Below, one piece after another: positions 2,468 through 23,433 of a stretch of 64,000 bases of DNA. The first letter of the stretch is position 1; each line of letters begins with the position of its first letter. The translations under genes were made by a program, and so were the position numbers. Under the pieces are notes generated by a model. The model did no database searches. It saw only the letters and a program-made list of their open reading frames with translations, and was not told the origin of the DNA. The stretch comes from Candidatus Gottesmanbacteria bacterium GW2011_GWA2_43_14. Its GTDB lineage: Bacteria; Patescibacteriota; Microgenomatia; 2-02-FULL-39-11. The stretch is from positions 4,140 to 68,139 of the forward strand of contig LCFP01000012.1 in assembly GCA_000999095.1 (NCBI GenBank). Direction: 5' to 3'.

Positions 2468-2468
2468 A

Positions 2469-3559: not shown

Positions 3560-3573
3560 AAAAGGAAAAAATT

Positions 3574-5359: not shown

Positions 5360-5447
5360 TTGATGGTAGATTTAATTCTAATTTTTGACAGGGCGTAAGT
5401 CAACTGTCGCAACCGAAAAATATGGGTTTATCTTTTTCAATCATAAT

Positions 5448-6146: not shown

Positions 6147-6172
6147 GAAATAGCGGTTTTAAACGAAATGAT

Positions 6173-8197: not shown

Positions 8198-8295
8198 AGG
8201 CAGTGATTTATTATATCAGAGTAGGCTCTGCATAAAACATCCTATAGTATTTATAAGGGAATGTCAAGAGCAGCAGTCCATGCTAAAATACTCGC

Positions 8296-9264: not shown

Positions 9265-9270
9265 AAAAAC

Positions 9271-10065
9271 ATGGAAGAAATAAACTGGTCAGGTGTCAAA
9301 GGCATAATCGTCAGGCATATGTTTGCCTGGAGGCGGGATCTCGACCGTCTGGTCGATGCTTTCTGGTGGGCGACTGTTGACCTGGTTTTCTGGGGATTGA
9401 CCTCAAGGTATGTCGAACAGTACAACCTGGGTTTTGACATAGTCGCAGTTTTCATCGGCGGTATTATTTTCTGGTCAGTCATCATCGGCAGCCAGCGTGA
9501 TATCAATATGCCGCTTCTCGATGAAGCCTGGAACCGTAACCTGATAAACCTTTTTACCACGCCTATCAGTCTGGTGGAGATGGTCATCGCAACCGTCCTT
9601 TTGGGTTTACTCAAGCTGACGATGACGATGACTTTTCTGTCGCTTTTGGCTTTTTTGCTCTACAAATACAATATTTTGAGTAACGGTTTTTATATCCTGC
9701 CTTTTTTTGCCAACCTGATTCTGATGGGCTGGACTGTAGGCTTTATCATCGACGGACTGATCCTGCGGTACGGTTATAAAATCCAGGCATTTGCCTGGGC
9801 GCTTATTTTTGTGATTTATCCGTTTGCAGCCGTGATTTATCCGGTAGGGGTTTTACCGAAATGGGCTCAGGTCATCTCACGACTGGTCCCTGCCAGTTAT
9901 GTTTTCGAAAACATGAGGAGGATTATCAGTCATGAAACCGTCAATTTTAACGAACTGGTAATCAGTTTCCTTCTAAACGTCCTTTATCTGACACTGGCGA
10001 TTATCTTTTTGAAAAGAATGTTCCGCCAGGCACTGAAACTGGGCAAACTGATAAAACTGAACTGA
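9271..10065 (+). CDS. ABC-2 family transporter permease
   Basis: Six predicted TM segments. Starts 7 nt after the ATPase gene. Confidence 0.7.
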   Translation: MEEINWSGVKGIIVRHMFAWRRDLDRLVDAFWWATVDLVFWGLTSRYVEQYNLGFDIVAVFIGGIIFWSVIIGSQRDINMPLLDEAWNRNLINLFTTPISLVEMVIATVLLGLLKLTMTMTFLSLLAFLLYKYNILSNGFYILPFFANLILMGWTVGFIIDGLILRYGYKIQAFAWALIFVIYPFAAVIYPVGVLPKWAQVISRLVPASYVFENMRRIISHETVNFNELVISFLLNVLYLTLAIIFLKRMFRQALKLGKLIKLN

Positions 10066-10077
10066 AGGATACCGGAA

Positions 10078-10105
10078 GGTGTCTAGCTATATCACACCTG
10101 GTGTG
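10078..10105 (+). repeat. Core copy 2 of the palindromic repeat (ggtgtctagctatatcacacctggtgtg)
   Basis: Exact match to the core of copies 1 and 3. Lies 13 nt after the permease stop and about 40 nt before the thyA start. Confidence 0.8.
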
Positions 10106-10141
10106 CGATTGATATCGACAAGGGAAATATTCTTTTATAGA

Positions 10142-11152
10142 ATGGAAGCTGCGATGGCTGACAAAAATCATCCGGAATACCAGTATTTAAATCTGCTTAA
10201 GGATATTCTGGACAACGGCGTCTGGAAAGTATCCCACTCAACAGGTGTTAAGCTGAAAAGCGTCTTCGGCCGGCAGATCAGATTTGATTTGTCCAAGGGC
10301 TTTCCCCTTTTGACCACCAAAAAAGTTTTCAGCCGCGGCATCATCCATGAACTGATCTGGTTTCTCTCAGGCTCCTCCAATATCAAATATCTGGTTGAAA
10401 ATAACGTCCATATCTGGGACGAATGGGCGTACAAAAAATACACCTGGGCGATGGAAGACTCGGCCAAAGGCCGATCGTCCTCTGGACGAAAAAAACAGAT
10501 GCCGATTCCTTATGAAGAATTTATTAAAAAAATAGCCGAAGACAAAAAATTCCTGGAAAAATGGGGGGAACTGGGACCTGTCTACGGAGTTCAATGGCGG
10601 CGCTGGCCTGCCTATGACGAAATGAATAAGGGGAGGATCAAAGAAATTGACCAGCTGGGATGGGCAATTGAAAAAATAAAAAAATATCCCCAGAAAAAGC
10701 ACTATATCATTTCGGCCTGGAATGCAGGTTCAATTTATGAAATGTCAGGCAGCCATTCGGCCTCGATGGTGATTGCGCCCTGCCATACGATGTATCATAT
10801 TAATATTACAGGGGATAAGTTGTCGCTTCTTTTATACCAGAGAAGTGCCGATTCATTCCTGGGCGTGCCCTTTAATATAGCAAGCTATGCCCTGTTGACG
10901 CTGATGCTGGCCCAGGTGACAGGCTATAAGCCAGGTGATTTCGTCCATACTTTCGGCGACATCCATATTTATGAAAACCATTTCGACCAGGTAAAGGAAC
11001 AGCTGAAAAGGACTCCGAAGCCGTTGCCTGTCATGAAGTTAAATCCGGAGATCAAAAACATAGATGATTTTAAATTTACTGATTTTGAATTATCGGGTTA
11101 CGATCCGCACCCGCCGATAAAAGGCGAGATCACGGTCGTAGGAGGATTTTAA
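10142..11152 (+). CDS. thyA: Thymidylate synthase (ThyA). Start uncertain (10142 or 10154).
   Basis: FGRQIRFDL, the PCH catalytic Cys motif (MVIAPCHTMYHINI), and SADSFLGVPFNIASYALLT. Confidence 0.85.
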   Translation: MEAAMADKNHPEYQYLNLLKDILDNGVWKVSHSTGVKLKSVFGRQIRFDLSKGFPLLTTKKVFSRGIIHELIWFLSGSSNIKYLVENNVHIWDEWAYKKYTWAMEDSAKGRSSSGRKKQMPIPYEEFIKKIAEDKKFLEKWGELGPVYGVQWRRWPAYDEMNKGRIKEIDQLGWAIEKIKKYPQKKHYIISAWNAGSIYEMSGSHSASMVIAPCHTMYHINITGDKLSLLLYQRSADSFLGVPFNIASYALLTLMLAQVTGYKPGDFVHTFGDIHIYENHFDQVKEQLKRTPKPLPVMKLNPEIKNIDDFKFTDFELSGYDPHPPIKGEITVVGGF

Positions 11153-11153
11153 A

Positions 11154-11642
11154 ATGGTGCATTTGAAAATATCGCTGATTGCGGCAATCGGATCCCACCG
11201 GGAGCTGGGAAAAGACAATAAACTTCTTTGGAGTATCCCCGAGGATATGCACCACTTTAAACAGATAACCTGGGGTCATCCTGTTGTCATGGGCCGTAAA
11301 ACTTTTGAATCTATAGGCAAGCCTCTCGACGGACGGCTGAATATAATTCTGACTAAAGAAAAAGATTTCCATCCTGAGGGCTGTTTTATCGCCCATTCCA
11401 TCCCGGAGGCAGTCAGCCTGGCCGAGAGTCGCAATGCCGAGGAGGTTTTTTTCATCGGCGGCGGAGACGTTTACCACCAGACGATCAAAATGGCGGATAA
11501 GCTTTACTTGACGGTCGTCGAGGGTAAATATGACGCCGATACCTACTTTCCCGATTACAGCGAATTCAAAAAAGTGCATTTCCAGAAGAAAGGGGAATAT
11601 AAAGATTATAAATATACTTTTCTGGAACTGTCCAAACTTTAA
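11154..11642 (+). CDS. folA: Dihydrofolate reductase
   Basis: ISLIAAIGSHRELGKDNKLLW...GRKTFESIG. Starts 2 nt after thyA. Confidence 0.85.
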   Translation: MVHLKISLIAAIGSHRELGKDNKLLWSIPEDMHHFKQITWGHPVVMGRKTFESIGKPLDGRLNIILTKEKDFHPEGCFIAHSIPEAVSLAESRNAEEVFFIGGGDVYHQTIKMADKLYLTVVEGKYDADTYFPDYSEFKKVHFQKKGEYKDYKYTFLELSKL

Positions 11643-11650
11643 TCTTTTAA

Positions 11651-12325
11651 ATGTTTCCCATCCGCGACCATAATCCGTCGAAGAGTTTTCCCGTCATCAC
11701 GGTGTTAATCATTTTGATCACCTCTTACGTTTTTTTCCTGCAGTTAACAGCTTTCGACCCTGAGGCTTTCATCATGAATTACGCCCTGGTGCCTGCATTG
11801 GTCGATTTCGGCAATCCTGCAACCTGGTGGCCTTTTATCTGGTCGATGTTCATGCATGGCGGGTGGCTGCACATCATTTCCAACTTGTGGTTTCTCTGGA
11901 TATTCGGAGACAATGTCGAGGCATTTCTGGGACATATAGGATTTTTGCTTTTTTATCTGTTAACCGGAATTGCCGCCAGCCTGGTGCAATTTTTTTTCAT
12001 GAGCGGATCGGAGATTCCGACTCTGGGAGCCTCCGGGGCAATCGCCGGAGTCTTGGGAGCTTACCTGGTTTTGTACCCCAGACACAAAATCGATACGTTG
12101 GTAATATCTTTCGGCGGATTCCTGCAAAAACTACAGATACCGGCTTCATTCATGCTCGGATACTGGTTTATCATCCAGCTGTTTTCGGGTGTCGGCAGTT
12201 TGGGAGCGGCCGGTCAGGGCGGCGTCGCCTGGTGGGCCCATATCGGCGGCTTTGCTTCAGGCTATCTTTTCACCCAGGCAGTCAAAGGCAACAACCGGAC
12301 TGAAACAGAACCGGATGCAGGGTAA
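11651..12325 (+). CDS. Rhomboid family intramembrane serine protease
   Basis: HGGWLHIISNLWFLWIFG, GASGAIAG (GxSG) and AHIGGFASG (His). About six TM helices. Confidence 0.8.
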   Translation: MFPIRDHNPSKSFPVITVLIILITSYVFFLQLTAFDPEAFIMNYALVPALVDFGNPATWWPFIWSMFMHGGWLHIISNLWFLWIFGDNVEAFLGHIGFLLFYLLTGIAASLVQFFFMSGSEIPTLGASGAIAGVLGAYLVLYPRHKIDTLVISFGGFLQKLQIPASFMLGYWFIIQLFSGVGSLGAAGQGGVAWWAHIGGFASGYLFTQAVKGNNRTETEPDAG

Positions 12326-12381
12326 TTTTCTGTTTTGTTTTGATAAATTAGCCTTTTTTGCTATAATGAGAAACTCTTAAG

Positions 12382-12786
12382 ATGAAAAGGATGTTTTTAT
12401 CATTAGTACTGTTTTTTGTCCTGTTACTTCCGGCAGGTGTAAACGCCCAAGAGACACCATCGTCAACACCCGAACCAACGGTGACGGCAACGCCAACCGG
12501 CAGCAGTGCGACAGCTACAAATTCACCTTCCGAACCGACGGCAACATCCAGGCCTCAGGCAACCGTCACCAGAACTCCGGTAAGAAGCACAGCCACGCCT
12601 TTGCCTCCGACCGTCACACCGACCATTACTTTGTCACCCACGCCCAGCCAGACACCGACTCCGACTCCGGCACCTTCTTTTTTGGCCAGGAGCGGGGGAG
12701 GAGCGGGTTTTATTTTGATTCTGGCAGGTTTAGCTCTTCTGGGCGGTTCCGTCTACTACCTGCGTAAACAAAAGCGCTCAGTTTAG
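12382..12786 (+). CDS. Secreted Thr/Pro-rich protein with a GlyGly-CTERM-like tail (GGG, then a TM helix, then basic residues)
   Basis: Signal peptide, a TP-rich linker, and the C-terminus ...ARSGGGAGFILILAGLALLGGSVYYLRKQKRSV. Immediately downstream of the rhomboid gene. Confidence 0.5.
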   Translation: MKRMFLSLVLFFVLLLPAGVNAQETPSSTPEPTVTATPTGSSATATNSPSEPTATSRPQATVTRTPVRSTATPLPPTVTPTITLSPTPSQTPTPTPAPSFLARSGGGAGFILILAGLALLGGSVYYLRKQKRSV

Positions 12787-12927
12787 CTTCCATATTTTTT
12801 ATTATCCCCTTTTTATATATTCCTGATATTTCTCTCATGTGCTGAAACTACGATAACGGCATAATAATGTTACTTACAGGCCTGCCGCCTTAAAACATTT
12901 TATCTCAACAAAATATCCATCTTTGCC

Positions 12928-12957
12928 AGAAACCCCCGAATACTCGGGGGTTTTTTA
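12928..12957. terminator. Bidirectional intrinsic terminator
   Basis: An A-run, then the CCCCCG-aatact-CGGGGG hairpin, then a T-run. It lies between convergent genes (12382..12786 + and rnj -). Confidence 0.6.
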
Positions 12958-12973
12958 TATTTCCGGGGGGATT

Positions 12974-14677
12974 TCAAACATTGATGACGACGGTCAGGAT
13001 GAGCGGACGGCGGTGGGTTTCCCTGAAGAAAAATTCCTCCAGATTGCCTTCGATCTGCCGTCTGACAAAATGCCAGTCGGTAATGCGGCCCTTTTTCAGT
13101 TTCAGGGAATTGACAATGACATTTTTAGCCTTCTCTATCAGTCCTTCCGACTCTTTCATATAAACAAAGCCGCGGGAAATAATATCCGGATCAGCTGAAA
13201 CGCGGCCGGAAGACTGGTCAATGGGCACAACCACAACCACAATTCCTTCACTGGCCATCGTCTGGCGGTCGCGAAGAACCACATGGCCGATATCGCCGAC
13301 ACCCAATCCGTCGATCATAATATTTTTTAAATTGAGGCGGTCTTTAACACTGACCTGGCCTTCTTTGGTAAATTCCAGAATTTCCCCCTCCTGGGGTTGC
13401 AGGACTTGTTGATGTTTATAGCCCATATCATAAGCCAGTTCGGCATAATGTCTCATTTGCCTGATGGTGCCGCCGATCGGCAGAATAAATTTGGGCCTGG
13501 TCAGGCCGATCATCAAAGCCAGGTCACTTTTGGATCCATGGCCTGAAACATGCAGGGCATCGGTGATTTCCGAATAGGCGACTCTGGCGCCGGCTGCGGT
13601 CAGGGAATCTATCAGGCCATGAACGGCGCTTTCATAGCCGGGAATGGGATCGGCGGAAAAGACCACGATATCCCCTTCTTTTATCGAGACAGACTTATGG
13701 ATGCCTTCGGCAATTCTGGACAGGGCTGAATTGGGCTGAGCCTGGCTGCCGGTAACAATCAGAGCCAAATCCTTGGGAGGGTGCTTGCGGATGTCTTTTT
13801 CGCGGACAACAAAGTTGTCGCTATAGTGCAGATAATTTAATTTGCGGGAGACATCGATATTTTTCTCGATCGACCTGCCTAAAAAGGCAATTTTGCGGTT
13901 GTGGCGGATAGCCACATCAACCGCCTGTTGAATCCTGGAGATGTTCGATGACTGGGTGGTGAAGATAAATTTACCAGGACAGTTCCGGATTTCTTTTTCC
14001 AGGGCATCTTCGATGACTCTTTCAGAGAGGGTATAACCTTCGGATTCCACGCGGACACAGTCTGATAAGAGGCAGACAATGCCGGAATTGGCGCTTGCTG
14101 CGATTTTGCCGACTTCAGTCTGCCTGCCGTCAATAGGCGTCCAGTCGAATTTGAAATCAGAGCCGTGGTAAAAATTGCCGACCGGAGTCCTGATAAAGAG
14201 ATTGGAGGCATCCGGTATGGAATGGGTGACATGGATGAAGCTGACGGTAAACGGGCCGAGCGTCAGATTTCTATCTTCGGCAATTTCATTCACCTGAAAC
14301 TGCAGACCGAAATCAGCTAATTTAACTTTGGCCAAGGCCGAAGTCAGTTTGTTGGCGTAAACAGGCACTTTTAGATCGGGCAGAATATAAGGCAGGGCGC
14401 CGATATGGTCTTCATGCCCGTGAGTCAGGACGATGCCGCGGATCTTGTCTTTTTTGTCCTGAAGATAGGTGATATCGGGAATAACCAGATCAATGCCGTA
14501 CATGGCTTCATCGGGAAAACCTATACCGCAGTCGACGATCAGTATGTCGCTGATAGTTTTCGGGTCTGAGCGAAGCTCATAGATATACATGTTTTTGGTG
14601 ACATTGCCGATGCCTCCCAGGGGGATCAGTCTTAAAAATTGGCCAAAGGGATTTTTATATATGGGTTCTGTTTGCAT
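12974..14677 (-). CDS. rnj: Ribonuclease J
   Basis: Metallo-beta-lactamase motif LTHGHEDHIGALPY. The length and beta-CASP region match RNase J. Confidence 0.85.
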   Translation of the reverse strand: MQTEPIYKNPFGQFLRLIPLGGIGNVTKNMYIYELRSDPKTISDILIVDCGIGFPDEAMYGIDLVIPDITYLQDKKDKIRGIVLTHGHEDHIGALPYILPDLKVPVYANKLTSALAKVKLADFGLQFQVNEIAEDRNLTLGPFTVSFIHVTHSIPDASNLFIRTPVGNFYHGSDFKFDWTPIDGRQTEVGKIAASANSGIVCLLSDCVRVESEGYTLSERVIEDALEKEIRNCPGKFIFTTQSSNISRIQQAVDVAIRHNRKIAFLGRSIEKNIDVSRKLNYLHYSDNFVVREKDIRKHPPKDLALIVTGSQAQPNSALSRIAEGIHKSVSIKEGDIVVFSADPIPGYESAVHGLIDSLTAAGARVAYSEITDALHVSGHGSKSDLALMIGLTRPKFILPIGGTIRQMRHYAELAYDMGYKHQQVLQPQEGEILEFTKEGQVSVKDRLNLKNIMIDGLGVGDIGHVVLRDRQTMASEGIVVVVVPIDQSSGRVSADPDIISRGFVYMKESEGLIEKAKNVIVNSLKLKKGRITDWHFVRRQIEGNLEEFFFRETHRRPLILTVVINV

Positions 14678-14682
14678 AATTA

Positions 14683-15768
14683 TTACCAGGTAGGCAGAAA
14701 TTTTTTAACATTGTCATTGGTGAGGGTGACTTTGCTGACCTGATTTTCAATAATCTGCCTGGCAACTTTGCGGCAGACGCCGTCGATAGTCCTTTCCAGC
14801 GTTCTGATGCCGGAATCGTAACCGAGCGGCCTGACTATGGCACTCCAAACATTATCTTCTATCTGCAGTTGCCCGGCAGAAAGACCGGTAGCGGCCAGGA
14901 TTTTGGGATAAACATAAGATTTGGCGATGACAATTTTTTCTTCATCATTATAGGAGGGCATCTGAATGGGTTCCAGTCTGTCCATAACCGCCGTTGAGAT
15001 ATTATTGGTATTGTTGGCTGTGGCTATAAAGAGGACTTCGGACAGGTCAAAGGGAAAATCTATGTAATGGTCGATAAAACCTACATTTTGTTCAGGGTCC
15101 AGAAGTTCGACCAGAACGCCCATAATATCCGACCGGGCATGCTCGGCCACGCGGTCAAGTTCATCCAAAAGGATAACCGGATTTTTACTGCCGGCACGTC
15201 TTAATGCTTTTATCAACTGGCCGACTTCGGCATCGGGATGGACGCGTGATTCCCCTCTCAAGTCAAGGGCCGAACCCATGCCGCCGAAAGGAATTCTGAC
15301 AAATTTCCGGTTCAGGGCTTCGGCGATTGAGATGGCCATGGTTGTTTTGCCGGTGCCGACCAGGCCGACAAAAAACAGGATGGGTGCCCTGGTAAAATTG
15401 TGTTTGGCATCAGGATGTATCTGGCTCAAATTCAGATTCAATTTCATGACTGATAAATATTCCAGTATTCTGTCTTTTAATTCGCCCAGACCGTAATGAT
15501 ACTTATCCAGAATCAGTTTGGCATTTTTAATGTCCAGATTATCAGGAGTCTTGTATTGCCAGGGAAGGGAAGTGATCCAGTCAATGTAAGCGGCCACGGC
15601 GTCAAATTGGCTGAACTGGGTATGGTATTTAAAGCTCAATTCCGCCCGGTGGATCATGGTTTGGGCTTTTTCTTTGAGTTCCTGCGGTAAGGTAACGGAG
15701 TTTATTTTTTGAGTCAGTTTTGTCAGTTCCGCAAATTCTCCGTCGGCGGCGTTTGTTTGGTTGTCCAT
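14683..15768 (-). CDS. Lon-like AAA+ ATPase that lacks the Lon N-terminal (LAN) domain and the protease domain
   Basis: YIDW..LPW, DKYHYGLGELKDRILEYLSV, Walker A GLVGTGKTT, Walker B ILLDELDRV, LLDPEQN. The ORF stops exactly where the Lon protease domain would begin. RNase J starts 5 nt later. Confidence 0.7.
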   Translation of the reverse strand: MDNQTNAADGEFAELTKLTQKINSVTLPQELKEKAQTMIHRAELSFKYHTQFSQFDAVAAYIDWITSLPWQYKTPDNLDIKNAKLILDKYHYGLGELKDRILEYLSVMKLNLNLSQIHPDAKHNFTRAPILFFVGLVGTGKTTMAISIAEALNRKFVRIPFGGMGSALDLRGESRVHPDAEVGQLIKALRRAGSKNPVILLDELDRVAEHARSDIMGVLVELLDPEQNVGFIDHYIDFPFDLSEVLFIATANNTNNISTAVMDRLEPIQMPSYNDEEKIVIAKSYVYPKILAATGLSAGQLQIEDNVWSAIVRPLGYDSGIRTLERTIDGVCRKVARQIIENQVSKVTLTNDNVKKFLPTW

Positions 15769-15815
15769 CAGTAAAATTATAACAGGCTTTAAGATTTGCT
15801 GTCAGTGGAAAGATT

Positions 15816-16970
15816 TTAAATCCCCTCAAGGGCTTGCGTTATATCTGCTATCAGATCATCCGCATCCTCGATGCCGACGGACAGTCTGATCAGTGTATCG
15901 CTAAGTCCGATTTTCGCCCGGTCTTCTGCCGGAATCGATGCATGGGTCATCGAAGCCGGATGCTCGATAAGCGATTCGACCACACCCAGAGATTCCGCCA
16001 CGGCGATAATTTTCAATGATTCCAGAAATTTTACCGACAGGGCAAGATCGGTATCCAGTTCGAATGAAAGCATACCGCTTGCGCCTGTCATCTGTTTTTT
16101 GGCAATGTCGTAATTCGGATGGGTGGAAAGTCCCGGATAATAAATTTTTTTGACTTTCGGCTGACGGCTGAGGAAGTCCACGATTTTCAGGGCGTTTTCT
16201 TCATGCCTTTTCATTCTCAAAGAAAGGGTTTTGATGCCTTTCAATATCTGGTAGCTGTCAAAGGGAGAGAGTATGGCTCCCACGGCATTTTGCAGGAATT
16301 TCAGACGAACAGACAACTGTTCGTCCCTGACAACAACGCCGCCTGCCACACAATCGGAATGGCCGCCGATATATTTGGTCATGGAGTGAATAACTATATC
16401 AGCTCCCAAATCCAGCGGTTTTTGGAAATAGGGCGAAGCGAAAGTATTGTCGACAACCGTCAAAATGCCTTTGGCCCGGGCTGTTTCGGCAACCGAGGCA
16501 ATATCGATTATTTTCAGAAGGGGATTGGTCGGCGATTCTATCCAGATCACTTTGGTGTTTTTCGTCAGATGAGGAAGAATTTCTTTGCCCTGGCAAAAAT
16601 CGGCGAATGTAAATTCCAGCCCGAAATCGCCAAAGACTTTGGTGAATAGTCTCCGGCTGCCGCCATAAACATCATCGATTGAAAGCAGGTGATCCCCCTG
16701 TTTGAGAAGCAGAAGAATGTTGGTCATGGCAGCCAGTCCGGAAGAAAAAGCAAAAGCGTATTTGCCGTTTTCAAGCGCGGCCAAGTTTTTTTCCAGGGCT
16801 TCCCGCGTCGGATTGCCGCTTCTGGAGTATTCATAGCCTGCTGTTGGCCGGTCGACTTTTGCCCGGGCAAAGGTGGTCGAGAGGTGGATCGGGACAACAA
16901 CATCGCCGCTGCCGCCCTCTTTTAAATTGGGTTCATTGCCGGTATGAATGGCTTTGGTAGCAAATTTCAC
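15816..16970 (-). CDS. Cys/Met-metabolism PLP-dependent enzyme (cystathionine gamma-synthase / beta-lyase / methionine gamma-lyase family)
   Basis: PLP-lysine motif SMTKYIGGHSD and an N-terminal AIHTG. GTG start. Confidence 0.75.
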   Translation of the reverse strand: MKFATKAIHTGNEPNLKEGGSGDVVVPIHLSTTFARAKVDRPTAGYEYSRSGNPTREALEKNLAALENGKYAFAFSSGLAAMTNILLLLKQGDHLLSIDDVYGGSRRLFTKVFGDFGLEFTFADFCQGKEILPHLTKNTKVIWIESPTNPLLKIIDIASVAETARAKGILTVVDNTFASPYFQKPLDLGADIVIHSMTKYIGGHSDCVAGGVVVRDEQLSVRLKFLQNAVGAILSPFDSYQILKGIKTLSLRMKRHEENALKIVDFLSRQPKVKKIYYPGLSTHPNYDIAKKQMTGASGMLSFELDTDLALSVKFLESLKIIAVAESLGVVESLIEHPASMTHASIPAEDRAKIGLSDTLIRLSVGIEDADDLIADITQALEGI

Positions 16971-17114: not shown

Positions 17115-19286
17115 TTAAAACCTTCTTCTTTTAGGAGGACCGAAGCGGTCACGGCGGGGAGGACCGGAGTCCCTTCTTGGCTGGGGCGGTCTTTTCTTGG
17201 CATCTTCGCCGAAAAGCATGGACAGATTGATGCGGCCCTGGTCATCGATTTCCATGACCCGGACTGTTACTTTCTGGCCGATGGTAACGACATCGTTGGG
17301 ATTGGAAACAAAATCGGTGGCCATCTGGGAAACATGGACCATGCCTTCGCGGCCGGGAAGAATTTCCACAAAAGCGCCGAAGGAGAGGATGCGCCTGACC
17401 AGTCCTTCATAGACTTCCCCCGGCTGGACTTCCTTGATAATACCGGATACCCATTTGAAGGCGATCTCCACTTTTTCCGGATCGATGCCGGCGATGGTGA
17501 CCTGACCGTCATCGTTGACATTGATATCACAGCCTGTTTCGGCAATTATCTGGCGGATGATTTTGCCTCCCGGTCCAATGACTTCGCCGATTTTTTCTTT
17601 GGGAATTGTAACGACTTTGATCTTGGGTGCGTATTGAGAAATGTGGGTGCGGCTTTGGGGAAGGACTTTCAGCATTTCTTTCAGGATATAAAGACGGGCT
17701 GTCCGGGCTTTTTCCAAAGTCTCTTGAATTATTTCCTGCGACAGACCGTCATTTTTGACATCCAGCTGGATGGCGGTAATGCCTTTTTCCGAACCGGCGA
17801 CTTTGAAGTCCATATCTCCGGTGAAATCTTCGATGCCGATAATATCGGTGAGCAAAACGTATTTATTTTTCGCCCCGACTAAACCAATGGAAATACCGCT
17901 GACGGGACTTTTGATGGGAACACCGGCATCCATTAATGCCAAAGTAGAACCGCAGGTCGAAGCCATGGATGTCGAACCGTTGGAAGACATTATTTCCGAA
18001 ACCAGTCTGACGGTATAGGGAAAACTGCTCTGTGGAGGAATGACCGGCCACAAGGCTCTTTCAGCCAGGGCGCCGTGTCCGACTTCGCGCCTGGAGGGAA
18101 AACCAACTCGGCCCGTTTCACCGACTGAGTATGGCGGCATGCTGTAGTGGTGGATGTATCTTTTGGCTGTTTCGCCTTCCGGACTCTCAATAAGCTGCTC
18201 CATGGACGGTGACCCCAGTGTGGCCACAGTCAGTGCCTGGGTTTGACCCCGGCGGAACATGGCGCTGCCGTGGGTACGCGGCAACAGTCCGACTTCTCCT
18301 TCGATATCTCTAATTTCGTCTGCTTTTCTGCCGTCCGGTCTTTTGTTTTTTTCAAGAATGTTCCTGCGGATTGTTTCCTTAAAATTGTATTCAAGGGCTT
18401 TTTCAATGTCTTTCTTGTCATATTCCTCGTCGGTAGCGGCAATTTTATCGATCAGATCCGATGTTTCGTTGCCTTCCCTTTCTTTGCTGACCCGGGTCGT
18501 AACCAAAGCGTCGATTTCTTTCTGGAAATCTTTTTTTATGATGCTTTTAAGTTTTTCGATGTCAGCATCAGGATCAACCACGATTTTTTCCTTGCCTACG
18601 GCTGATTGCAATTCATTGATTAATTTAATGATTTTTTTAATTTCGTCTGAAGCAAATTTGATGCCCGAAAACATGTTTTCTTCACTGATTTCATTGCCGC
18701 CGGCTTCGATCATAACTGTTTTATCAGCGGTGCCGGAAACAATAAGGTCCATATCGGAAAATTCAAGTTCTTTGTCGCCGGGATTGGCGAAAAAACCCTT
18801 GTCGCCGTTTTCCGTCGGCACAAGTCCTACCCGGACGGCTCCGATCGGGCCTTTCCAGGGTAGCGGTGAAATGGACAGGGCGGCACTTACGGCTATCATG
18901 CCTAAAATATCCGGTTCATTCTGGCCGTCAACAGAGAGGATAGTGATAATAACCTGGACATCGTGGTGGTAATTGTAATCAAAAAGGGGCCTGATAGACC
19001 TGTCGATTAACCTGGCTCTAAGAATGGCGTCATCGGAAGGACGGCCTTCGCGTTTGACCCAGCGGCTGCCTTTGATTCTGCCTCCGGCGTACAGCCTTTC
19101 AACATATTCGACCGAGAGGGGGAAGTAATCCAGATTGGATTCTTTGGCCGAGGCCATCACTGTGGCTATGACCATGGTGTCGCCGTAGCGCGCCAGGACA
19201 GCAGCCGTGGCCTGTTCGGCAAACCGTCCGACTTCCAAAGACAGAGTTCGGCCGCCGATTTCCGCTGATTTTGATATGACTTTCAT
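17115..19286 (-). CDS. pnp: Polynucleotide phosphorylase
   Basis: Two RNase PH domains plus KH and S1 domains. Basic RR-rich C-terminal tail. Confidence 0.9.
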   Translation of the reverse strand: MKVISKSAEIGGRTLSLEVGRFAEQATAAVLARYGDTMVIATVMASAKESNLDYFPLSVEYVERLYAGGRIKGSRWVKREGRPSDDAILRARLIDRSIRPLFDYNYHHDVQVIITILSVDGQNEPDILGMIAVSAALSISPLPWKGPIGAVRVGLVPTENGDKGFFANPGDKELEFSDMDLIVSGTADKTVMIEAGGNEISEENMFSGIKFASDEIKKIIKLINELQSAVGKEKIVVDPDADIEKLKSIIKKDFQKEIDALVTTRVSKEREGNETSDLIDKIAATDEEYDKKDIEKALEYNFKETIRRNILEKNKRPDGRKADEIRDIEGEVGLLPRTHGSAMFRRGQTQALTVATLGSPSMEQLIESPEGETAKRYIHHYSMPPYSVGETGRVGFPSRREVGHGALAERALWPVIPPQSSFPYTVRLVSEIMSSNGSTSMASTCGSTLALMDAGVPIKSPVSGISIGLVGAKNKYVLLTDIIGIEDFTGDMDFKVAGSEKGITAIQLDVKNDGLSQEIIQETLEKARTARLYILKEMLKVLPQSRTHISQYAPKIKVVTIPKEKIGEVIGPGGKIIRQIIAETGCDINVNDDGQVTIAGIDPEKVEIAFKWVSGIIKEVQPGEVYEGLVRRILSFGAFVEILPGREGMVHVSQMATDFVSNPNDVVTIGQKVTVRVMEIDDQGRINLSMLFGEDAKKRPPQPRRDSGPPRRDRFGPPKRRRF

Positions 19287-19331: not shown

Positions 19332-19601
19332 TTATTTTGATAAATCGAGTTTTTTGATGATCTCCTTGTACCTGGTTTCCGCTTTGCTAGACAAATATGT
19401 TAACAGTCTTCTTCTTTTGGATATCATGCCTAAAAGACCGCGCCTTGAATGGTTGTCCTTGGGATTGCCTTTCAGGTGTCCGACCAGTTTATCTATTTTG
19501 TGGGAGAGGAGAGCAATTTGAACCTCAGGACTGCCGGTGTCTCCTTTTTTGGTGGCGTATTCACCAATAATTTTCTTTTTATCGTCAATCGGAAGCGCCA
19601 T
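19332..19601 (-). CDS. rpsO: Ribosomal protein S15
   Basis: 89 aa with the S15 signature (LLSHKIDKLVGHLKGNPKDNHSRRGLLGMISKRRRLLTYL). Confidence 0.9.
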   Translation of the reverse strand: MALPIDDKKKIIGEYATKKGDTGSPEVQIALLSHKIDKLVGHLKGNPKDNHSRRGLLGMISKRRRLLTYLSSKAETRYKEIIKKLDLSK

Positions 19602-19705
19602 TTAATAAATTAATCCGCCCGTTGTATGTTGGCGGAGATTCATATATAAACCTTAATTTCCTAAGCATTATAATCTAATCCCGGAAAAATTTCAATGAGA
19701 ATTTT

Positions 19706-20743
19706 TTAGAGAAGGGTAGAGCCTTTGTAGATTTTCGGCTTCAACCAGTCTGGAGGGGTTTCCGGAGGTGATCCTGCCTCTCTTACTGACGGGCTTTGTC
19801 CCTGTTGCTGCTGTTTAGGCTGTTGCTGGGGTTGGGTTTTGGGACGGAATGGCTGCTGCTGTTGCTGTGTCTGCTGCTGCTGTCCTGAAACCGGCTGTCT
19901 TTGAAACGGCCGTTGGGGACGGGCAAAAGAAAAAGGTTTTTGGGATTGATCCTGCCTGGGAAACTGCGGCAGATTCTGACCGGTTTTAGCTTGGGATTGT
20001 TTTTGCCTGGCACCGTTTTTGAGCAAAAGTGCGGCTGTTTCAAAAGTGGCGGCTGTAACCTCGGGCGAGGCGAAATTGTTGGTTTCCTCAGATAGTCCCA
20101 TCATAAGATTCGTAGCAATGTCCGGCTCCAGGGACAATCCCATTTCGCTTATAAGAGTGGCGGCTAGCTCTGAAATCGAAGAAGCACTGGTGTCGATAAT
20201 ATTGGCTTTACCGTATTTTTGATTGTTGCCTGCCACATCGATATTGATGAGCGGTTTTTCATTAAAAAGACTCTGGTTCCCGTTATAAAGACTGTCCAGA
20301 TCATCAAGTTTGCTTGCACCGACGGTGATGATGCAATCGGTTGCGCCGCCGCTGTAATTGTACTGCATCATTTCGGGTGTAATGGGGGGATAGCCTTCTC
20401 TTGGTTCGATAACTAAATTAAAAGTATCATTTTCGATATTGTAGCTGACTTTCTCGATGGAGCCTTCCTGGTATGGGAAGGAAATGATCAGATTCCGGCC
20501 GTTTTGACTGCCGATCGCTTTGCCGATTTTGTCCACACCTACTAATTCATTGTAGCCGACAGTCATTTCTGTGGCTGAAACCATTGAAATCTGTTTGCCG
20601 GCTGCCGATAATGACAGATAAAATGAAAGAGCTGCCGCTACTGCATCAAAAGAAGGATTTGCTGGCAGGGCAATTAAAATAGCCTTGGAAGATTCCAGCA
20701 GAGTTCTCGCTTGATTTACTTGGTCCCGATTAAGGTTTGCCAT
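19706..20743 (-). CDS. DHH-family (NrnA-like) domain protein with degenerate catalytic motifs and a Gln/Pro-rich tail
   Basis: The fold resembles the NrnA N-domain, but PDxD is replaced by PSFD, DHH by DVAG, and GDTGRF by SEETNNF. No DHHA1 domain. Ends in a Q/P-rich tail of about 90 aa. Confidence 0.5.
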   Translation of the reverse strand: MANLNRDQVNQARTLLESSKAILIALPANPSFDAVAAALSFYLSLSAAGKQISMVSATEMTVGYNELVGVDKIGKAIGSQNGRNLIISFPYQEGSIEKVSYNIENDTFNLVIEPREGYPPITPEMMQYNYSGGATDCIITVGASKLDDLDSLYNGNQSLFNEKPLINIDVAGNNQKYGKANIIDTSASSISELAATLISEMGLSLEPDIATNLMMGLSEETNNFASPEVTAATFETAALLLKNGARQKQSQAKTGQNLPQFPRQDQSQKPFSFARPQRPFQRQPVSGQQQQTQQQQQPFRPKTQPQQQPKQQQQGQSPSVREAGSPPETPPDWLKPKIYKGSTLL

Positions 20744-20784
20744 ATTTGGGCTTTTAAAAAGACCCCTTTAATATCGGGGTCAAA

Positions 20785-22281
20785 TTAGCCTATAGATATT
20801 ATACTATCACCTGTCAAGACCTCTATGTTTCCGGCCAATCCGACACCGGCTTCTGTACCGGTTTCCGCTTTGGTTATGTCGGTTTTATGAAATTTGAGTG
20901 ATTTGATTTTTGTTCTGCCGATTTCTACATCATTGCGCATGATTTTTATTTGATCTCCTTTGGCTATTCTGCCTGAAGTGACTTTGGCGCCCAAAACAAT
21001 TTCGCCCTTGTAATTGAAGACAGCCAGAACATTGGCTTTGCCGAAGATTTCCACCAGGTCTCCTTTTCTTAAAGCTTCGATAACTTCTTCCAATTCATCC
21101 AGCAGCTCATAAATAATATTATAAGTTTTAATTAGTACTTTCTCCGATTTTGCCAATTTCAGTACCTGATCTGACGGTTTTACGGCAAAGCCGATAATCA
21201 GGGCTTTGGTGGTTTTTGCCAATAAGACATCTGATTCCGAAATATTGCCCACACCTGACAAGATGATTTTTGTCCGGTCTTTAAGGCTGCTAAGGCCTAC
21301 GGAAATAGCTTCCAAAGTACCTGTTGTATCGGCACGGACGATCAACCTTATTTGTTCCGTTAATAATTCATTTTCAGTTGTTTCAACTATCGGTTTCGGA
21401 GATTGAGGTGAAATGGATTTCCCCTGCGGTTTTACTATTTCAGACTCATTTTTCAGGTAAAGGCTGGAGCCGACAGCCGGCAACTTATTCCAGCCTAAAA
21501 CTTCAGCCGGATCCCCGGCGCTGACAGTTTTCAAGGGCTGACCAAGCCAATCTGTTAAAGCCCGTATACGGAATTCCTGCTTATCGGATACGCAATCGTC
21601 ACCGATTGACAGAGATCCCCGGCGTACAATCACCGTGGCTGTAATGCCTTTATTTTTGGATAATAAAGATTCGATAACAACGCCGTGGAATTGACCGCTT
21701 TTTTCTGCTGTTTTAAACAAATCATTCAATACCAGAATCATTTCCAGCAGTTTATCGATACCGCTGCCGTTTTTCGCCGAAACCGGAACAAGCGGAGTTT
21801 CCCCGCCGTACTCTTCAAGTTCGACGCCGTTTTTCGAGAGTTGTTTTTTAACCATCTCCTGATTGAGATTGGGCAGATCAATTTTATTCAAGGCTACCAG
21901 AAACGGGATTTTAGCCCTTTTTATATGTTCAATTGATTCGATAGTTTGAGGTTTGACACCGTCATTGGCAGCGACCACCAGGATGGCGACATCGGCAACG
22001 GTTGCCCCCCGGCTTCTCATTTCGGCAAAAGCCTGGTGTCCGGGAGTATCTATAAAAGTAATTTTTTGGGGAAAAGCAGGTTGTTTTAAAAGGGTTTGAG
22101 GAACATCTATTTGGTAGGCGGCTATGTGTTGGGTGATGCCTCCGTGTTCGCGGGCGGCAATATTAGTTTTTCTTATTGTATCTAAAAGTGAAGTTTTGCC
22201 GTGGTCAACATGACCTAAAACAGCCACTACCGGAGGCCTAGCAGAAACAGTTTGCACATTTGATTTTTTGTTTTTGGCCAT
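20785..22281 (-). CDS. infB: Translation initiation factor IF-2 (short form)
   Basis: GTPase G1 motif [25 protein letters not shown], and C-terminal beta-barrels. Confidence 0.9.
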   Translation of the reverse strand: MAKNKKSNVQTVSARPPVVAVLGHVDHGKTSLLDTIRKTNIAAREHGGITQHIAAYQIDVPQTLLKQPAFPQKITFIDTPGHQAFAEMRSRGATVADVAILVVAANDGVKPQTIESIEHIKRAKIPFLVALNKIDLPNLNQEMVKKQLSKNGVELEEYGGETPLVPVSAKNGSGIDKLLEMILVLNDLFKTAEKSGQFHGVVIESLLSKNKGITATVIVRRGSLSIGDDCVSDKQEFRIRALTDWLGQPLKTVSAGDPAEVLGWNKLPAVGSSLYLKNESEIVKPQGKSISPQSPKPIVETTENELLTEQIRLIVRADTTGTLEAISVGLSSLKDRTKIILSGVGNISESDVLLAKTTKALIIGFAVKPSDQVLKLAKSEKVLIKTYNIIYELLDELEEVIEALRKGDLVEIFGKANVLAVFNYKGEIVLGAKVTSGRIAKGDQIKIMRNDVEIGRTKIKSLKFHKTDITKAETGTEAGVGLAGNIEVLTGDSIISIG

Positions 22282-22308: not shown

Positions 22309-23433
22309 TCATGCTTCTTTCGGTTTCTCTGATTCTTTTTTAGCTTTTGACTCCTTAGCTTTTGCCTGTTTTGGGTCATCCGATACCGACAGGTCATCTC
22401 TTTTACTACTTTTTACCTCTCGGGTTGAATTTTTCTCTACTTTTTCCTTAGTTCCTGTCTCTTCCGGCTCGGTTTTTGCCTTACCTGACTTGGGTTTTAT
22501 ATCAATTTTGTAATCTGTCAGCTTTGCCGCCAGACGGACATTTTGACCGTCTTTACCAATGGCCAGAGAAAGCTGATCATCAGGGACCAAAGCTTCAGCC
22601 AGTTTATTTTTTTCATTGACAATAATTTCAATATCCTTTGCCGGTGCCAATGACTGGGAAATGAAAATTTTGGGATCATCACTCCATTGGATGATGTCCA
22701 CTTTTTCGGCGCCCCCCAGTTCGTTAATTACTGCTTGGACCCTAACGCCTTTTTGACCTACACAGCTGCCGACAGGATCAACACCGGATTGTGTCGAGGC
22801 GACCGCGATTTTAGTCCTATTGCCTGCTTCCCGGGCGATTACCCGTAAGACTACCGCACCGTTATTTACCTCAGGCACTTCTCTTTTGAAAAGCGCTGAC
22901 ACCAAGCCTTTGGAGGCGCGGGAGACAATGATTTCATTTCCACGCATTGTCTGTCTGATACTTTCTATATAAAAGGAAAGTCTTTGATTTAAACGGTATT
23001 TTTCATTAGGGATTTGTTCTTGAGGAGGCATGACTCCTTCTGCACGACCGATATCAACAATTATATTAGGTCCGTCAAACCGCAAAATCATACCGTTGAC
23101 GATAGTTCCTACTTTTGTGGAATAATCAGCTATGATAGCTTTTTTTTCAGCCTCACGTATACGTTGGAGGATGACTTGTTTGGCTGTTTGAGCGGCAATC
23201 CGGCCAAAACCCGCCGGAGTAATGTCTTTTTTATCTTTATAGACTTTAGCTTCTCCTGATTGTGGATCTATAGTTATTTCTAATTCTTCAATCTCTTCAA
23301 TCCCGTAATCTTTACGATACGCTGCCAGGATAGCTGCTTTAATTGTTTCCAGGACAATCTCAGGATCAATACCTCGTTCATTAGCTACCTGGTTTAAAGC
23401 TAGGGCAAATTCACTTCTGACTGTTGCCGGCAT
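22309..23433 (-). CDS. nusA: Transcription factor NusA
   Basis: N-terminal domain plus S1 and 2xKH domains, with a Lys/Glu-rich tail. Confidence 0.85.
   Translation of the reverse strand: MPATVRSEFALALNQVANERGIDPEIVLETIKAAILAAYRKDYGIEEIEELEITIDPQSGEAKVYKDKKDITPAGFGRIAAQTAKQVILQRIREAEKKAIIADYSTKVGTIVNGMILRFDGPNIIVDIGRAEGVMPPQEQIPNEKYRLNQRLSFYIESIRQTMRGNEIIVSRASKGLVSALFKREVPEVNNGAVVLRVIAREAGNRTKIAVASTQSGVDPVGSCVGQKGVRVQAVINELGGAEKVDIIQWSDDPKIFISQSLAPAKDIEIIVNEKNKLAEALVPDDQLSLAIGKDGQNVRLAAKLTDYKIDIKPKSGKAKTEPEETGTKEKVEKNSTREVKSSKRDDLSVSDDPKQAKAKESKAKKESEKPKEA

What the first reader, a model, noticed from the sequence alone, without database searches (positions are those of the whole stretch)
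19706..20743. Catalytically degenerate DHH (NrnA-like) paralogue embedded in the nusA-infB-rpsO-pnp operon
The N-terminal 250 aa follow the DHH-family fold pattern (ILIALPANPSFDAVAAALSFYLSL; INIDVAG; ISELAATLI; GLSEETNNF). Every metal-binding motif is substituted: DxD becomes SFD, DHH becomes DVA, DTG becomes ETN. The DHHA1 domain is replaced by a 90-aa Gln/Pro-rich low-complexity tail. It occupies the slot where rbfA and truB sit in other bacteria, between infB and rpsO. This suggests a non-enzymatic, possibly RNA- or ribosome-binding role tied to RNA degradation (PNPase) or translation initiation.
Basis: partly seen in the sequence, partly recalled or inferred. Interest (0 to 1): 0.55.

Follow-up and report, generated by a model that had tools for sequence, protein, structure and literature searches.

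The report
Dead nanoRNase adaptor beside IF2
This gene encodes a widely conserved, almost certainly inactive relative of a small-RNA-degrading enzyme that always follows the translation initiation factor IF2 gene in one group of ultra-small bacteria. It has swapped its substrate-binding half for a flexible tail ending in an invariant docking peptide, which points to a lineage-specific helper of translation or ribosome assembly whose partner is still unknown.

Summary
Window 19706-20743 (- strand) encodes a 345-aa protein in a Candidatus Gottesmanbacteria genome.

- **Fold.** Residues 1-250 are a true NrnA-type DHH domain (PDB phmmer 2e-11, profile 5e-18, Foldseek 8e-15).
- **Lost catalytic features.** Only 2 of 8 canonical active-site positions survive. 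There is no DHHA1 domain.
  - A 55-aa, four-stranded beta insert is the best conserved part of the family. It has no sequence or fold match elsewhere.
  - The Gln/Pro tail is a hypervariable linker ending in a nearly invariant peptide, P-x-D-W-L-K-P-K-I-[YF]-K-G-S. Its Trp lies 13-14 residues from the C-terminus.
- **Distribution.** The family has over 1000 clusters at 50% identity across the Microgenomates group.
- **Gene context.** The gene directly follows infB in 76 of 76 testable loci. rpsO-pnp is a looser neighbour and is replaced by rmuC-recJ in some lineages.
- **Origin.** This is the published position of active NrnA' nanoRNases (nusA-infB-rbfA-nrnA'). Microgenomatia are reported to have lost rbfA.

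Best reading: a non-catalytic adaptor derived from NrnA', acting with IF2/NusA in translation initiation or 30S maturation. The partner is unproven. It is a new variant of a known kind, of moderate to high interest.

The parts
19706..20743 (-). Whole gene for the 345-aa degenerate DHH protein ('X'; NCBI KKS95999.1, UniRef100_A0A0G1DEE3)
   Evidence: ORF. An identical database protein is named 'exopolyphosphatase-like / phosphoesterase RecJ domain'. Over 1000 representative clusters match at E<1e-30.
20513..20743 (-). DHH domain, N-terminal part (aa 1-77): strand beta1, degenerate motif I (P27...S31-F32-D33), helix, strand beta2
   Evidence: Profile positions 10-77 align to TM1595 residues 7-74. 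AF2 gives strands 21-26 and 51-56 and helix 32-47.
20345..20512 (-). Family-specific insert (aa 78-133): four-stranded beta unit, 'NLIISFPYQEGSIEKVSYNIENDTFNLVIEPREGYP', the most conserved block of the family
   Evidence: It has no counterpart in NrnA structures: ~57 residues stand where TM1595 has ~10. It holds invariant residues N84 to R115. No PDB or Pfam sequence match at E<=10. It folds alone with pLDDT 84. No Foldseek match, best E=3.1.
20006..20344 (-). DHH domain, C-terminal part (aa 134-246): degenerate motif II (G142), motif III (D169-V170-A171) and motif IV (E220-T221-N222)
   Evidence: Aligned to NrnA, Rv2837c and RecJ-like chains.
19757..20005 (-). Disordered Gln/Pro-rich linker (aa 247-329), standing where DHHA1 would be
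   Evidence: pLDDT is about 50. Composition is 35% Q and 16% P. Length varies from 23 to 230 aa (median 66) and the sequence is not conserved across 219 relatives.
19709..19756 (-). Invariant C-terminal peptide (aa 330-345) PPDWLKPKIYKGSTLL-COOH
   Evidence: Of 219 relatives, 214 have W333, 218 have P336, 206 have K337 and 189 have D332. The Trp lies 13-14 residues from the C-terminus in 183/211. The motif was found nowhere else in 1.1 Mb of related loci plus the window.
20785..22281 (-). infB (short IF2, 498 aa, starts at the G domain), the invariant upstream neighbour
   Evidence: Pfam GTP_EFTU, IF-2 and EF-G_D2. Directly upstream of X in 76/76 testable loci.
22309..23433 (-). nusA, first gene of the nusA-infB-X unit
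   Evidence: Pfam NusA_N and KH_5. Synteny in 80 loci.
20756..20781 (-). Terminator-like hairpin GACCCC-(9 nt)-GGGGTC plus TTTTT, between the infB stop and the X start codon
   Evidence: Read directly from the sequence. The same kind of hairpin is present in most of the 18 closest Gottesmanbacteria loci. It is absent in deeper relatives, where the infB-X gap is 0-25 nt.
19667..19695 (-). Promoter-like site TTGAAA-17-TATAAT (11 of 12) between the X stop and the rpsO start
   Evidence: This is a consensus match only.
19332..19601 (-). rpsO (S15), the usual but not universal downstream neighbour
   Evidence: Pfam Ribosomal_S15. Within 700 nt of X in 55/75 loci.
17115..19286 (-). pnp (PNPase), downstream of rpsO
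   Evidence: Pfam RNase_PH, KH and S1.

Best explanation
X descends from the NrnA' type of DHH/DHHA1 nanoRNase, the clade that sits after nusA-infB-rbfA in other bacteria, and has become a non-catalytic adaptor.

**Shown**
- It keeps the DHH fold.
- It has lost the DHHA1 substrate-binding domain and most metal ligands.
- It has gained a strongly conserved four-stranded beta insert on an acidic core.
- It carries a flexible linker of variable length ending in an invariant basic/aromatic peptide at a fixed distance from the free C-terminus.
- It is encoded immediately after infB throughout the Microgenomates group.

**Inferred**
- The protein works by binding, not hydrolysis.
- The insert-bearing core and the tethered C-terminal peptide each dock onto a partner, so X bridges or recruits components.
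- Because the only invariant genomic partners are IF2 and NusA, the partner most likely belongs to translation initiation or late 30S maturation. Candidates are IF2 itself, the 30S subunit or NusA.
- This lineage is reported to lack RbfA, RimP, Era and Der, so X may cover part of what RbfA/RimP do elsewhere.
For: **Fold and ancestry**
- PDB sequence hits.
- Foldseek hits to TM1595, M. smegmatis and Mtb NrnA, and D. radiodurans RecJ-like.
- Confident AF2 model for residues 1-250 with a disordered tail.

**Loss of catalysis**
- The B. subtilis NrnA ligands are H20, D24, D26, D80, H103, H104 and D156. DHHA1 forms the substrate site (PMC5593865).
- X has P, S, D, G, V, A and E at those positions and no DHHA1.
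- Across 219 relatives none has the full set and none has GGGH. The old ligand positions differ between subclades (HTDDD[R/F]HA versus PSDGDxxx), while the insert and the peptide stay fixed.

**Real and selected gene**
- 1041 representative clusters at E<1e-30.
- Members in Gottesman-, Chisholm-, Woese- and Roizmanbacteria.

**Link to IF2**
- infB is directly upstream in 76/76 loci, with a median gap of 21 nt and often 0-5 nt.
- nusA-infB-X persists where rpsO-pnp is replaced by rmuC-recJ.
- A promoter-like site separates X from rpsO.

**Published context**
- Active NrnA' is co-transcribed with infB and rbfA in M. smegmatis (PMC4081065).
- Microgenomatia lost rbfA, era and der, and rimP is nearly absent in CPR (PMC12641178).
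- No rbfA, truB or rimP was found among the window ORFs scanned: the nusA-pnp cluster and the flanks at 114-16970 and 52268-62624. The 23.7-52 kb stretch was not scanned.

**Precedent**
- Cdc45 is a dead DHH protein that became a scaffold (PMC5100581).
Against: - No binding partner has been identified and nothing here tests binding.
- AF2 does not dock the peptide onto its own domain (tip pLDDT about 55-59), and no complex could be modelled.
- Gene adjacency is circumstantial. In most Gottesmanbacteria the gene is also close to rpsO-pnp, a Lon-like AAA+ gene and rnj.
- Some relatives keep 5-6 of 8 canonical positions, including an intact DHH triad. Residual metal or ligand binding therefore cannot be excluded for those.
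- A terminator-like hairpin lies between infB and X in the window's clade, so co-expression with infB may be only partial there.
- The absence of rbfA from this particular genome was not checked beyond the 64-kb window.
Confidence: 0.45

Rival explanations
1. X is an RNA-degradosome adaptor. The C-terminal Trp-containing peptide docks onto PNPase (or RNase J/Y), as the C-terminal GWW peptide of Caulobacter RNase E does. X would then be a nanoRNase-derived scaffold for RNA decay.
For: - In the window and in 55/75 loci, X lies just upstream of rpsO-pnp, followed by a Lon-like AAA+ gene and rnj. RNase Y is also in the window.
- The architecture resembles the RNase E tail. In RNase E, the peptide TAPPEKPRRGWWRR at the extreme C-terminus binds PNPase (PMC3376730).
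- The ancestor was an RNA-decay enzyme.
Against: - X keeps its peptide and insert in lineages where rpsO-pnp is not adjacent and rmuC-recJ follow instead.
- The adjacency to infB is absolute while that to rpsO is not.
- rpsO has its own promoter-like site.
- The peptide shares no motif with GWW.
Confidence: 0.17
2. X is still a ligand-binding or weakly catalytic protein. The remnant of the active site (D33, N167, D169, N174, N223, F224, plus H27/D142/H171 and an Arg in many relatives) binds a nucleotide such as pAp, a dinucleotide or c-di-AMP. X would then act as a sensor, or as an enzyme with altered chemistry, with the insert replacing DHHA1.
For: - D33 is invariant in 218/219 relatives, and D169, N174 and F224 are highly conserved.
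- The commonest family pattern keeps 5 of 8 canonical positions, with Arg or Phe replacing the first His. Three members keep an intact DHH triad.
- Catalytically dead EAL and HD-GYP proteins are known to bind dinucleotides (PMC9779919).
Against: - Both metal sites lose ligands in every member: D31 and the motif IV Asp are lost family-wide.
- The DHHA1 domain that forms the substrate site in NrnA is absent everywhere.
- The old ligand positions vary freely within the Gottesmanbacteria clade, as expected under relaxed selection.
- The conserved D and N residues are also conserved scaffold residues of ordinary NrnA motifs.
Confidence: 0.15
3. X is a decaying gene or an annotation artefact. On this reading it is a pseudogenised nrnA whose 3' half has frameshifted into low-complexity sequence.
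For: All catalytic motifs are substituted, and the C-terminal third is low-complexity sequence.
Against: - The same architecture occurs in over 1000 clusters at 50% identity.
- The start is conserved, the new insert is invariant, and the C-terminal peptide is invariant in the same reading frame.
- No DHHA1-like ORF exists in other frames.
Confidence: 0.01
4. The C-terminal peptide is a membrane-targeting or degradation signal. It would tether X to the membrane like the FtsA/MinD tails (my own knowledge), or mark it for an AAA+ machine such as the neighbouring Lon-like ATPase.
For: - The position at the extreme C-terminus after a flexible linker, the mix of hydrophobic and Lys residues, and a frequent hydrophobic C-terminal end.
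- A Lon-like AAA+ gene lies in the same cluster.
Against: - Invariant D332, P336, G341 and S342 point to a specific protein contact rather than amphipathicity.
- Pro336 would break a helix.
- The last three residues, where degrons usually lie, are the least conserved.
Confidence: 0.05

Closest known systems
NrnA' nanoRNases (M. smegmatis MSMEG_2630, M. tuberculosis Rv2837c/CnpB; also T. maritima TM1595 and D. radiodurans RecJ-like)
   Same: Best sequence and fold matches for the DHH domain. Same genomic neighbourhood: NrnA' genes sit after nusA-infB-rbfA and are co-transcribed with infB and rbfA (PMC4081065).
   Different: X lacks DHHA1/GGGH. It keeps only 2 of 8 canonical active-site positions in this genome and at most 6 in any relative. 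It carries a 55-aa beta insert between beta2 and motif II, and a disordered linker with a conserved C-terminal peptide. rbfA is missing between infB and X.
Cdc45 (eukaryotes) and archaeal GAN
   Same: DHH-family proteins in which an inserted domain mediates protein contacts. In Cdc45, catalytic residues were lost and the protein became a scaffold (PMC5100581).
   Different: Cdc45 and GAN keep DHHA1. Their CID is a helical bundle placed between DHH and DHHA1. X has no DHHA1, its insert is a small beta sheet inside the DHH domain, and neither protein appears among its top 50 Foldseek hits. This is an analogy, not membership.
RNase E C-terminal scaffold microdomains (Caulobacter GWW peptide)
   Same: A long disordered region ends in a short conserved Trp-containing peptide at the extreme C-terminus that recruits a partner (PMC3376730).
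   Different: No sequence relationship. A different folded domain. The partner of X's peptide is unknown.
RbfA / RimP (30S maturation factors encoded in the nusA-infB operon of other bacteria)
   Same: Operon position next to infB. The lineage carrying X is reported to have lost rbfA, and rimP is reported nearly absent across CPR (PMC12641178).
   Different: No homology: X has a DHH fold. Any functional overlap is pure inference.

Membership tests
DHH phosphoesterase superfamily (fold) | Homology to the N-terminal DHH domain (five-stranded parallel alpha/beta fold) | tested here: met
   PDB phmmer 2.3e-11. Profile 5e-18. Foldseek 7.9e-15 to TM1595 and 1.4e-13 to M. smegmatis NrnA. Pfam DHH is sub-threshold for this sequence (17.7 bits versus 28.1) but above threshold for relatives.
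NrnA / NrnA' nanoRNase (DHH/DHHA1 subfamily) | Complete set of metal-binding and catalytic residues (B. subtilis H20, D24, D26, D80, H103, H104, D156) | tested here: not met
   X has P27, S31, D33, G142, V170, A171 and E220. Of 219 relatives none has the full set, and the modal pattern is HTDDD[R/F]HA. The ligand list is from PMC5593865.
NrnA / NrnA' nanoRNase (DHH/DHHA1 subfamily) | C-terminal DHHA1 domain with GGGH motif forming the substrate-binding site | tested here: not met
   No DHHA1 hit in Pfam. Alignments end at the inter-domain linker. The tail is disordered. No GGGH-like motif in 219 relatives.
NrnA / NrnA' nanoRNase (DHH/DHHA1 subfamily) | NrnA' clade trait: gene located with nusA, infB and rbfA | tested here: met
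   nusA-infB-X in the window and in 76/76 testable loci. rbfA itself is absent from the locus. The trait is described in PMC4081065.
NrnA / NrnA' nanoRNase (DHH/DHHA1 subfamily) | Hydrolysis of nanoRNA, pAp or dinucleotides | not testable with these tools
   This needs an enzyme assay.
Cdc45/GAN-type non-catalytic DHH scaffold | CID helical domain inserted between DHH and DHHA1, with DHHA1 retained | tested here: not met
   The insert of X is a four-stranded beta unit within the DHH domain. X has no DHHA1. No Cdc45 or GAN structure appears among the top 50 Foldseek hits. The CID is described in PMC5100581.
RbfA | Sequence match to the RbfA family | tested here: not met
   The only Pfam hits are DHH and a noise hit. 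The insert has no Pfam or PDB match.
RNase E-type PNPase-recruiting peptide | Binding of the C-terminal peptide to PNPase | not testable with these tools
   Only the architecture resembles it. No complex prediction was available.

The most novel reading that the evidence does not exclude
X is a Microgenomates-specific translation or ribosome-biogenesis factor built from a dead nanoRNase. It is expressed with IF2. It would use its new beta insert and its tethered C-terminal peptide to dock on IF2 and/or the 30S subunit. In doing so it would take over the late 30S maturation or initiation checkpoint role that RbfA (and perhaps RimP or Era) plays in other bacteria and that this lineage has lost.
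Probability: 0.25. Interest if true: 0.75.

Novelty: new variant of a known kind. Interest (0 to 1): 0.6.

Why it matters
- CPR/Patescibacteria have small ribosomes and about half the usual ribosome-biogenesis factors. How they assemble and start ribosomes without RbfA, RimP, Era or Der is open (PMC12641178).
- X is universally conserved in the Microgenomates, undescribed in the library searched, and welded to infB. It is a concrete, testable candidate for a replacement factor.
- It is a clear bacterial case of a DHH enzyme turned pseudoenzyme, with staged decay visible across the family. The domain architecture changed first, and the metal ligands eroded afterwards.
- Databases currently label members as 'nanoRNase/pAp phosphatase' or 'c-di-AMP phosphodiesterase-like'. 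That would mislead metabolic reconstructions of nanoRNA and c-di-AMP turnover in these organisms.

Tried and rejected
- **Local decay or pseudogene.** Rejected on conservation.
- **Tail as frameshifted DHHA1.** No DHHA1-like ORF in other frames, and the C-terminal peptide is conserved in frame.
- **rbfA or truB hidden nearby.**
  - The ORFs scanned in the window carry none. Those cover the nusA-pnp cluster and the flanks at 114-16970 and 52268-62624; the 23.7-52 kb stretch was not scanned.
  - In loci with 1-3 kb between X and rpsO, the extra ORFs differ from locus to locus and none looked like rbfA or truB. They were inspected by eye only, not scanned.
- **The same C-terminal peptide on other proteins.** No other occurrence in 1.1 Mb of related loci plus the window. 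A database-wide search was not attempted because the X family would saturate the hit list.
- **Homology of the insert to a known domain.** No PDB sequence hit at E<=10, only noise in Pfam, and no Foldseek hit (best E=3.1).
- **A gene fusion as a functional clue.** P0217 is an in-frame IF2(C-terminal part)-X fusion. However, it lacks the end of IF2 and the start of X, occurs on a single contig, and that contig also has split nusA and infB. It is therefore treated as probable assembly error.
- **Cis-docking of the peptide.** The AF2 model gives no confident placement.
- **Rfam.** Only one tRNA in the window and nothing at this locus.
- **Ascertainment caveat.** The 80 genome loci were fished with the peptide patterns SIEKVSYN and DWLKPKIY, so their conservation of those two strings is partly circular. 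The profile-based searches do not have this bias and show the same conservation.
Full report
**1. What is there**

The ORF at 19706-20743 (- strand) is real and encodes 345 aa. On the same strand lie:
- nusA (22309-23433) and infB (20785-22281) upstream;
- rpsO (19332-19601) and pnp (17115-19286) downstream;
- then a Cys/Met PLP enzyme, a Lon-like AAA+ protein without a protease domain (14683-15768), and RNase J (12974-14677).

All of these were confirmed with Pfam. An identical protein is in NCBI and UniRef (KKS95999.1, A0A0G1DEE3) from a Candidatus Gottesmanbacteria MAG. It is named 'exopolyphosphatase-like protein, phosphoesterase RecJ domain-containing protein'. Gottesmanbacteria belong to the Microgenomates group of Patescibacteria/CPR.

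**2. The DHH assignment**

- On its own the sequence only grazes Pfam DHH (E=0.0045, 17.7 bits against a 28.1-bit cut-off).
- phmmer against PDB sequences gives 2.3e-11 to the D. radiodurans RecJ-like protein and about 2e-7 to M. tuberculosis Rv2837c/NrnA.
- A profile of 117 relatives gives 5e-18 to T. maritima TM1595 and 1.5e-15 to M. smegmatis NrnA.
- An AF2 model built on that alignment has pLDDT >90 for residues 1-250. By Foldseek it matches TM1595, mycobacterial NrnA, RecJ-like, B. fragilis Nrn, S. aureus NrnA, Borrelia DhhP, B. subtilis NrnA, GdpP and family II pyrophosphatases, from E=8e-15 downwards.

**3. The active site**

[quoted passage not shown] The DHHA1 domain (RxRxR and GGGH motifs) forms the substrate-binding site (PMC5593865).

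In X the equivalent positions are P27, S31, D33, G142, V170, A171 and E220. The Asp of the DHH triad (D169) is kept.

All sequence alignments stop at the DHH/DHHA1 linker. No DHHA1 is detected. Residues 251-345 are predicted disordered.

**4.

*An insert.* The profile-to-structure alignments come in two blocks: profile 10-77 against TM1595 7-74, and 134/142-257 against 85-196. About 55 residues (78-133) therefore have no counterpart in NrnA.
- This insert is the best conserved part of the family: NLxISFPYQEGSIEKVSYNIExxxFNLVIEPR, with more than 20 invariant residues among 117 sequences.
- It forms four beta strands in the full model and folds the same way when predicted alone (pLDDT 84).
- It has no PDB or Pfam sequence match at E<=10 and no Foldseek match (best E=3.1).

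*A tethered peptide.* The Gln/Pro tail (35% Q, 16% P) is a hypervariable linker, 23-230 aa long with a median of 66.
- It ends in a nearly invariant peptide, P-x-D-W-L-K-P-K-I-[YF]-K-G-S-[ST]-[LVI].
- Counts among 219 relatives: W in 214, the central P in 218, K337 in 206.
- The Trp is 13-14 residues from the C-terminus in 183 of 211.
- The folded core is acidic (pI 4.4; family median 5.05) and the peptide is basic.
- The peptide motif occurs nowhere else in 1.1 Mb of related loci plus the window.

**5. A family, not an accident**

A profile search of 1.84 billion representative proteins finds 1041 clusters (50% identity) at E<1e-30. Named members come from Gottesman-, Chisholm-, Woese- and Roizmanbacteria and unclassified Microgenomates.

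In a broad alignment of 219 members (31-74% identical to X), none has the complete ligand set and none has a GGGH motif. The state of the eight positions (the seven NrnA ligands plus the first Asp of the DHH triad) varies by subclade.
- The commonest pattern is H-T-D-D-D-[R/F]-H-A, which is 5 of 8.
- Three members keep an intact DHH triad (6 of 8).
- The Gottesmanbacteria clade around the window has drifted to about 2 of 8, with many different residues at the former ligand positions.
- The insert, the loss of DHHA1 and the C-terminal peptide are constant in all of them.

The simplest reading is staged. The architecture changed first and catalysis was lost. The leftover ligands have been eroding under relaxed selection since, while selection now acts on the insert and the peptide. 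A few orthologues do retain the DHH triad, but none retains a working site, so this is not local decay.

**6. Genomic context**

Across 80 genome loci the order nusA-infB-X-rpsO-pnp-(Lon-like AAA+)-rnj is very common. The two sides are not equal, however.
- infB is directly upstream in 76 of 76 testable loci. The median gap is 21 nt and is often 0-5 nt.
- rpsO lies within 700 nt in 55 of 75 loci. It is separated by unrelated genes in 16 and absent within the flank in 4.
- In Roizmanbacteria-type genomes the order is nusA-infB-X-rmuC-recJ. X there still has the insert and the peptide.
- In the window a near-consensus promoter-like site (TTGAAA-17-TATAAT) lies between X and rpsO.

X therefore belongs with nusA-infB rather than with pnp.

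**7. Link to known biology**

Srivastav et al. defined an NrnA' clade of active nanoRNases whose neighbours are infB, rbfA and nusA. They showed co-transcription of M. smegmatis MSMEG_2630 with infB and rbfA (PMC4081065). The best PDB matches of X are of this type. X thus most likely descends from an NrnA' that sat at this position. That inference was not tested with a phylogeny.

A survey of more than 30,000 genomes reports that Microgenomatia, WWE3 and Dojkabacteria lost der, era and rbfA, and that rimP is nearly absent from CPR (PMC12641178). Consistently, no rbfA, truB or rimP turned up among the window ORFs scanned: the nusA-pnp cluster and the flanks at 114-16970 and 52268-62624. The 23.7-52 kb stretch was not scanned. 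The rest of this genome could not be examined.

**8. How it most likely works**

Shown:
- a DHH fold without a functional metal centre or a substrate-binding domain;
- a new conserved surface element;
- a tethered, invariant C-terminal peptide;
- obligatory adjacency to infB.

Inferred:
- X is a binding protein (adaptor) whose core and peptide contact one or two partners.
- The partner belongs to the IF2/NusA/30S sphere.
- X possibly compensates for lost RbfA/RimP functions.

I put about 0.8 on 'non-catalytic' and about 0.45 on the full statement. Precedents exist for both elements. Cdc45 is a dead DHH scaffold with an inserted interaction domain (PMC5100581). The extreme C-terminal Trp peptide of Caulobacter RNase E recruits PNPase (PMC3376730).

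The main rivals are:
- a PNPase/degradosome adaptor, favoured by proximity in this genome and weakened by the lineages where pnp is elsewhere;
- a ligand sensor using the remnant site, which cannot be excluded for the 5/8 subtype.

**9. Novelty and limits**

- No paper in the searched library combines DHH with the Microgenomates, Gottesmanbacteria or CPR search terms, so nothing there describes this family.
- No curated Pfam or NCBIfam model covers the insert or the peptide.
- Source annotations call members hypothetical, 'nanoRNase/pAp phosphatase' or 'c-di-AMP phosphodiesterase-like'. The last two are probably over-annotations.
- X is a new variant of a known kind: a pseudoenzyme derivative of NrnA' with a new architecture.
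- Not tested: the partner, any activity, the presence of an intact NrnA or RbfA elsewhere in this genome, and the phylogenetic derivation.

Noticed in passing
window 20756-20781 (- strand), between the infB stop (20785) and the X start (20743): An intrinsic-terminator-like hairpin, GACCCC-gatattaaa-GGGGTC followed by TTTTT, ends only about 12 nt before the X start codon. That leaves no room for a promoter. A similar ACCCC...GGGG+T-run hairpin sits at the same place in most of the 18 closest Gottesmanbacteria loci. It is absent in deeper relatives, whose infB-X gap is 0-25 nt. It may be an attenuator or a 3' stabiliser that sets the IF2:X ratio.
   Followed up: partly
window 14683-15768 (- strand); same position in most loci L002-L080: A 361-aa protein has an AAA+ domain and a Lon lid but no Lon protease domain. 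It is conserved in the order pnp-(this gene)-rnj across the Microgenomates loci. Its function is unclear.
   Followed up: partly
window 20785-22281 and 22309-23433 (- strand): IF2 is only 498 aa and starts directly at the G domain, with no N-terminal region. NusA matches only the NusA_N and KH Pfam domains and ends in a Lys/Glu-rich tail. No rimP precedes nusA; rpoB starts divergently 260 nt away.
   Followed up: no
L081 1817-3790 (GCA_016178125.1, JACOTV010000021.1); protein P0217: An in-frame fusion joins the C-terminal part of IF2 to X. It lacks the last ~25 aa of IF2 and the first ~20 aa of X. On the same contig nusA and infB are each split in two, so it is probably an assembly or sequencing artefact. 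A real fusion would be strong evidence for an IF2-X functional link.
   Followed up: partly
L082/L083 8001-8960, L084 8001-9059, L081: In Roizmanbacteria-type genomes X is followed by rmuC and a full-length recJ (DHH, DHHA1 and RecJ_OB) instead of rpsO-pnp. Here a dead DHH gene lies next to a live one.
   Followed up: partly
loci L008, L010-L012, L017, L018, L021, L026, L027, L029-L031, L069 and others: Many GTDB/INSDC records carrying this typical Microgenomates locus are titled 'uncultured Gammaproteobacteria', 'uncultured Pseudomonadales' or 'Candidatus Bathyarchaeia archaeon'. The record titles look like placeholder or wrong taxonomy.
   Followed up: no
window 19667-19695 (- strand): A near-consensus sigma-70-like promoter (TTGAAA, 17 nt, TATAAT; 11 of 12) lies in the 104-nt gap between X and rpsO. 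It suggests that rpsO-pnp is a separate transcription unit.
   Followed up: no
window 15816-16970 (- strand): A Cys/Met-metabolism PLP enzyme lies between pnp and the Lon-like AAA+ gene. It is present at that spot in only a few related loci (L003, L016, L018), so it is a local insertion into an otherwise conserved cluster.
   Followed up: no
window 59559-61079 (+), 12974-14677 (-), 17115-19286 (-): RNase Y, RNase J and PNPase are all in this 64-kb window. No RNase E was found among the ORFs scanned. This is a Firmicutes-like RNA-decay toolkit.
   Followed up: no
database entries P0117, P0292, P0302: Members of this family are named 'nanoRNase/pAp phosphatase (c-di-AMP/oligoRNAs hydrolase)' or 'c-di-AMP phosphodiesterase-like protein' by automatic pipelines, although they lack DHHA1 and a complete metal site.
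   Followed up: yes
window 114-776 (+), 815-1507 (-), 5000-5398 (+), 12382-12786 (+): Four ORFs of 132-230 aa have no Pfam match at E<=1e-4. They were not examined further.
   Followed up: no
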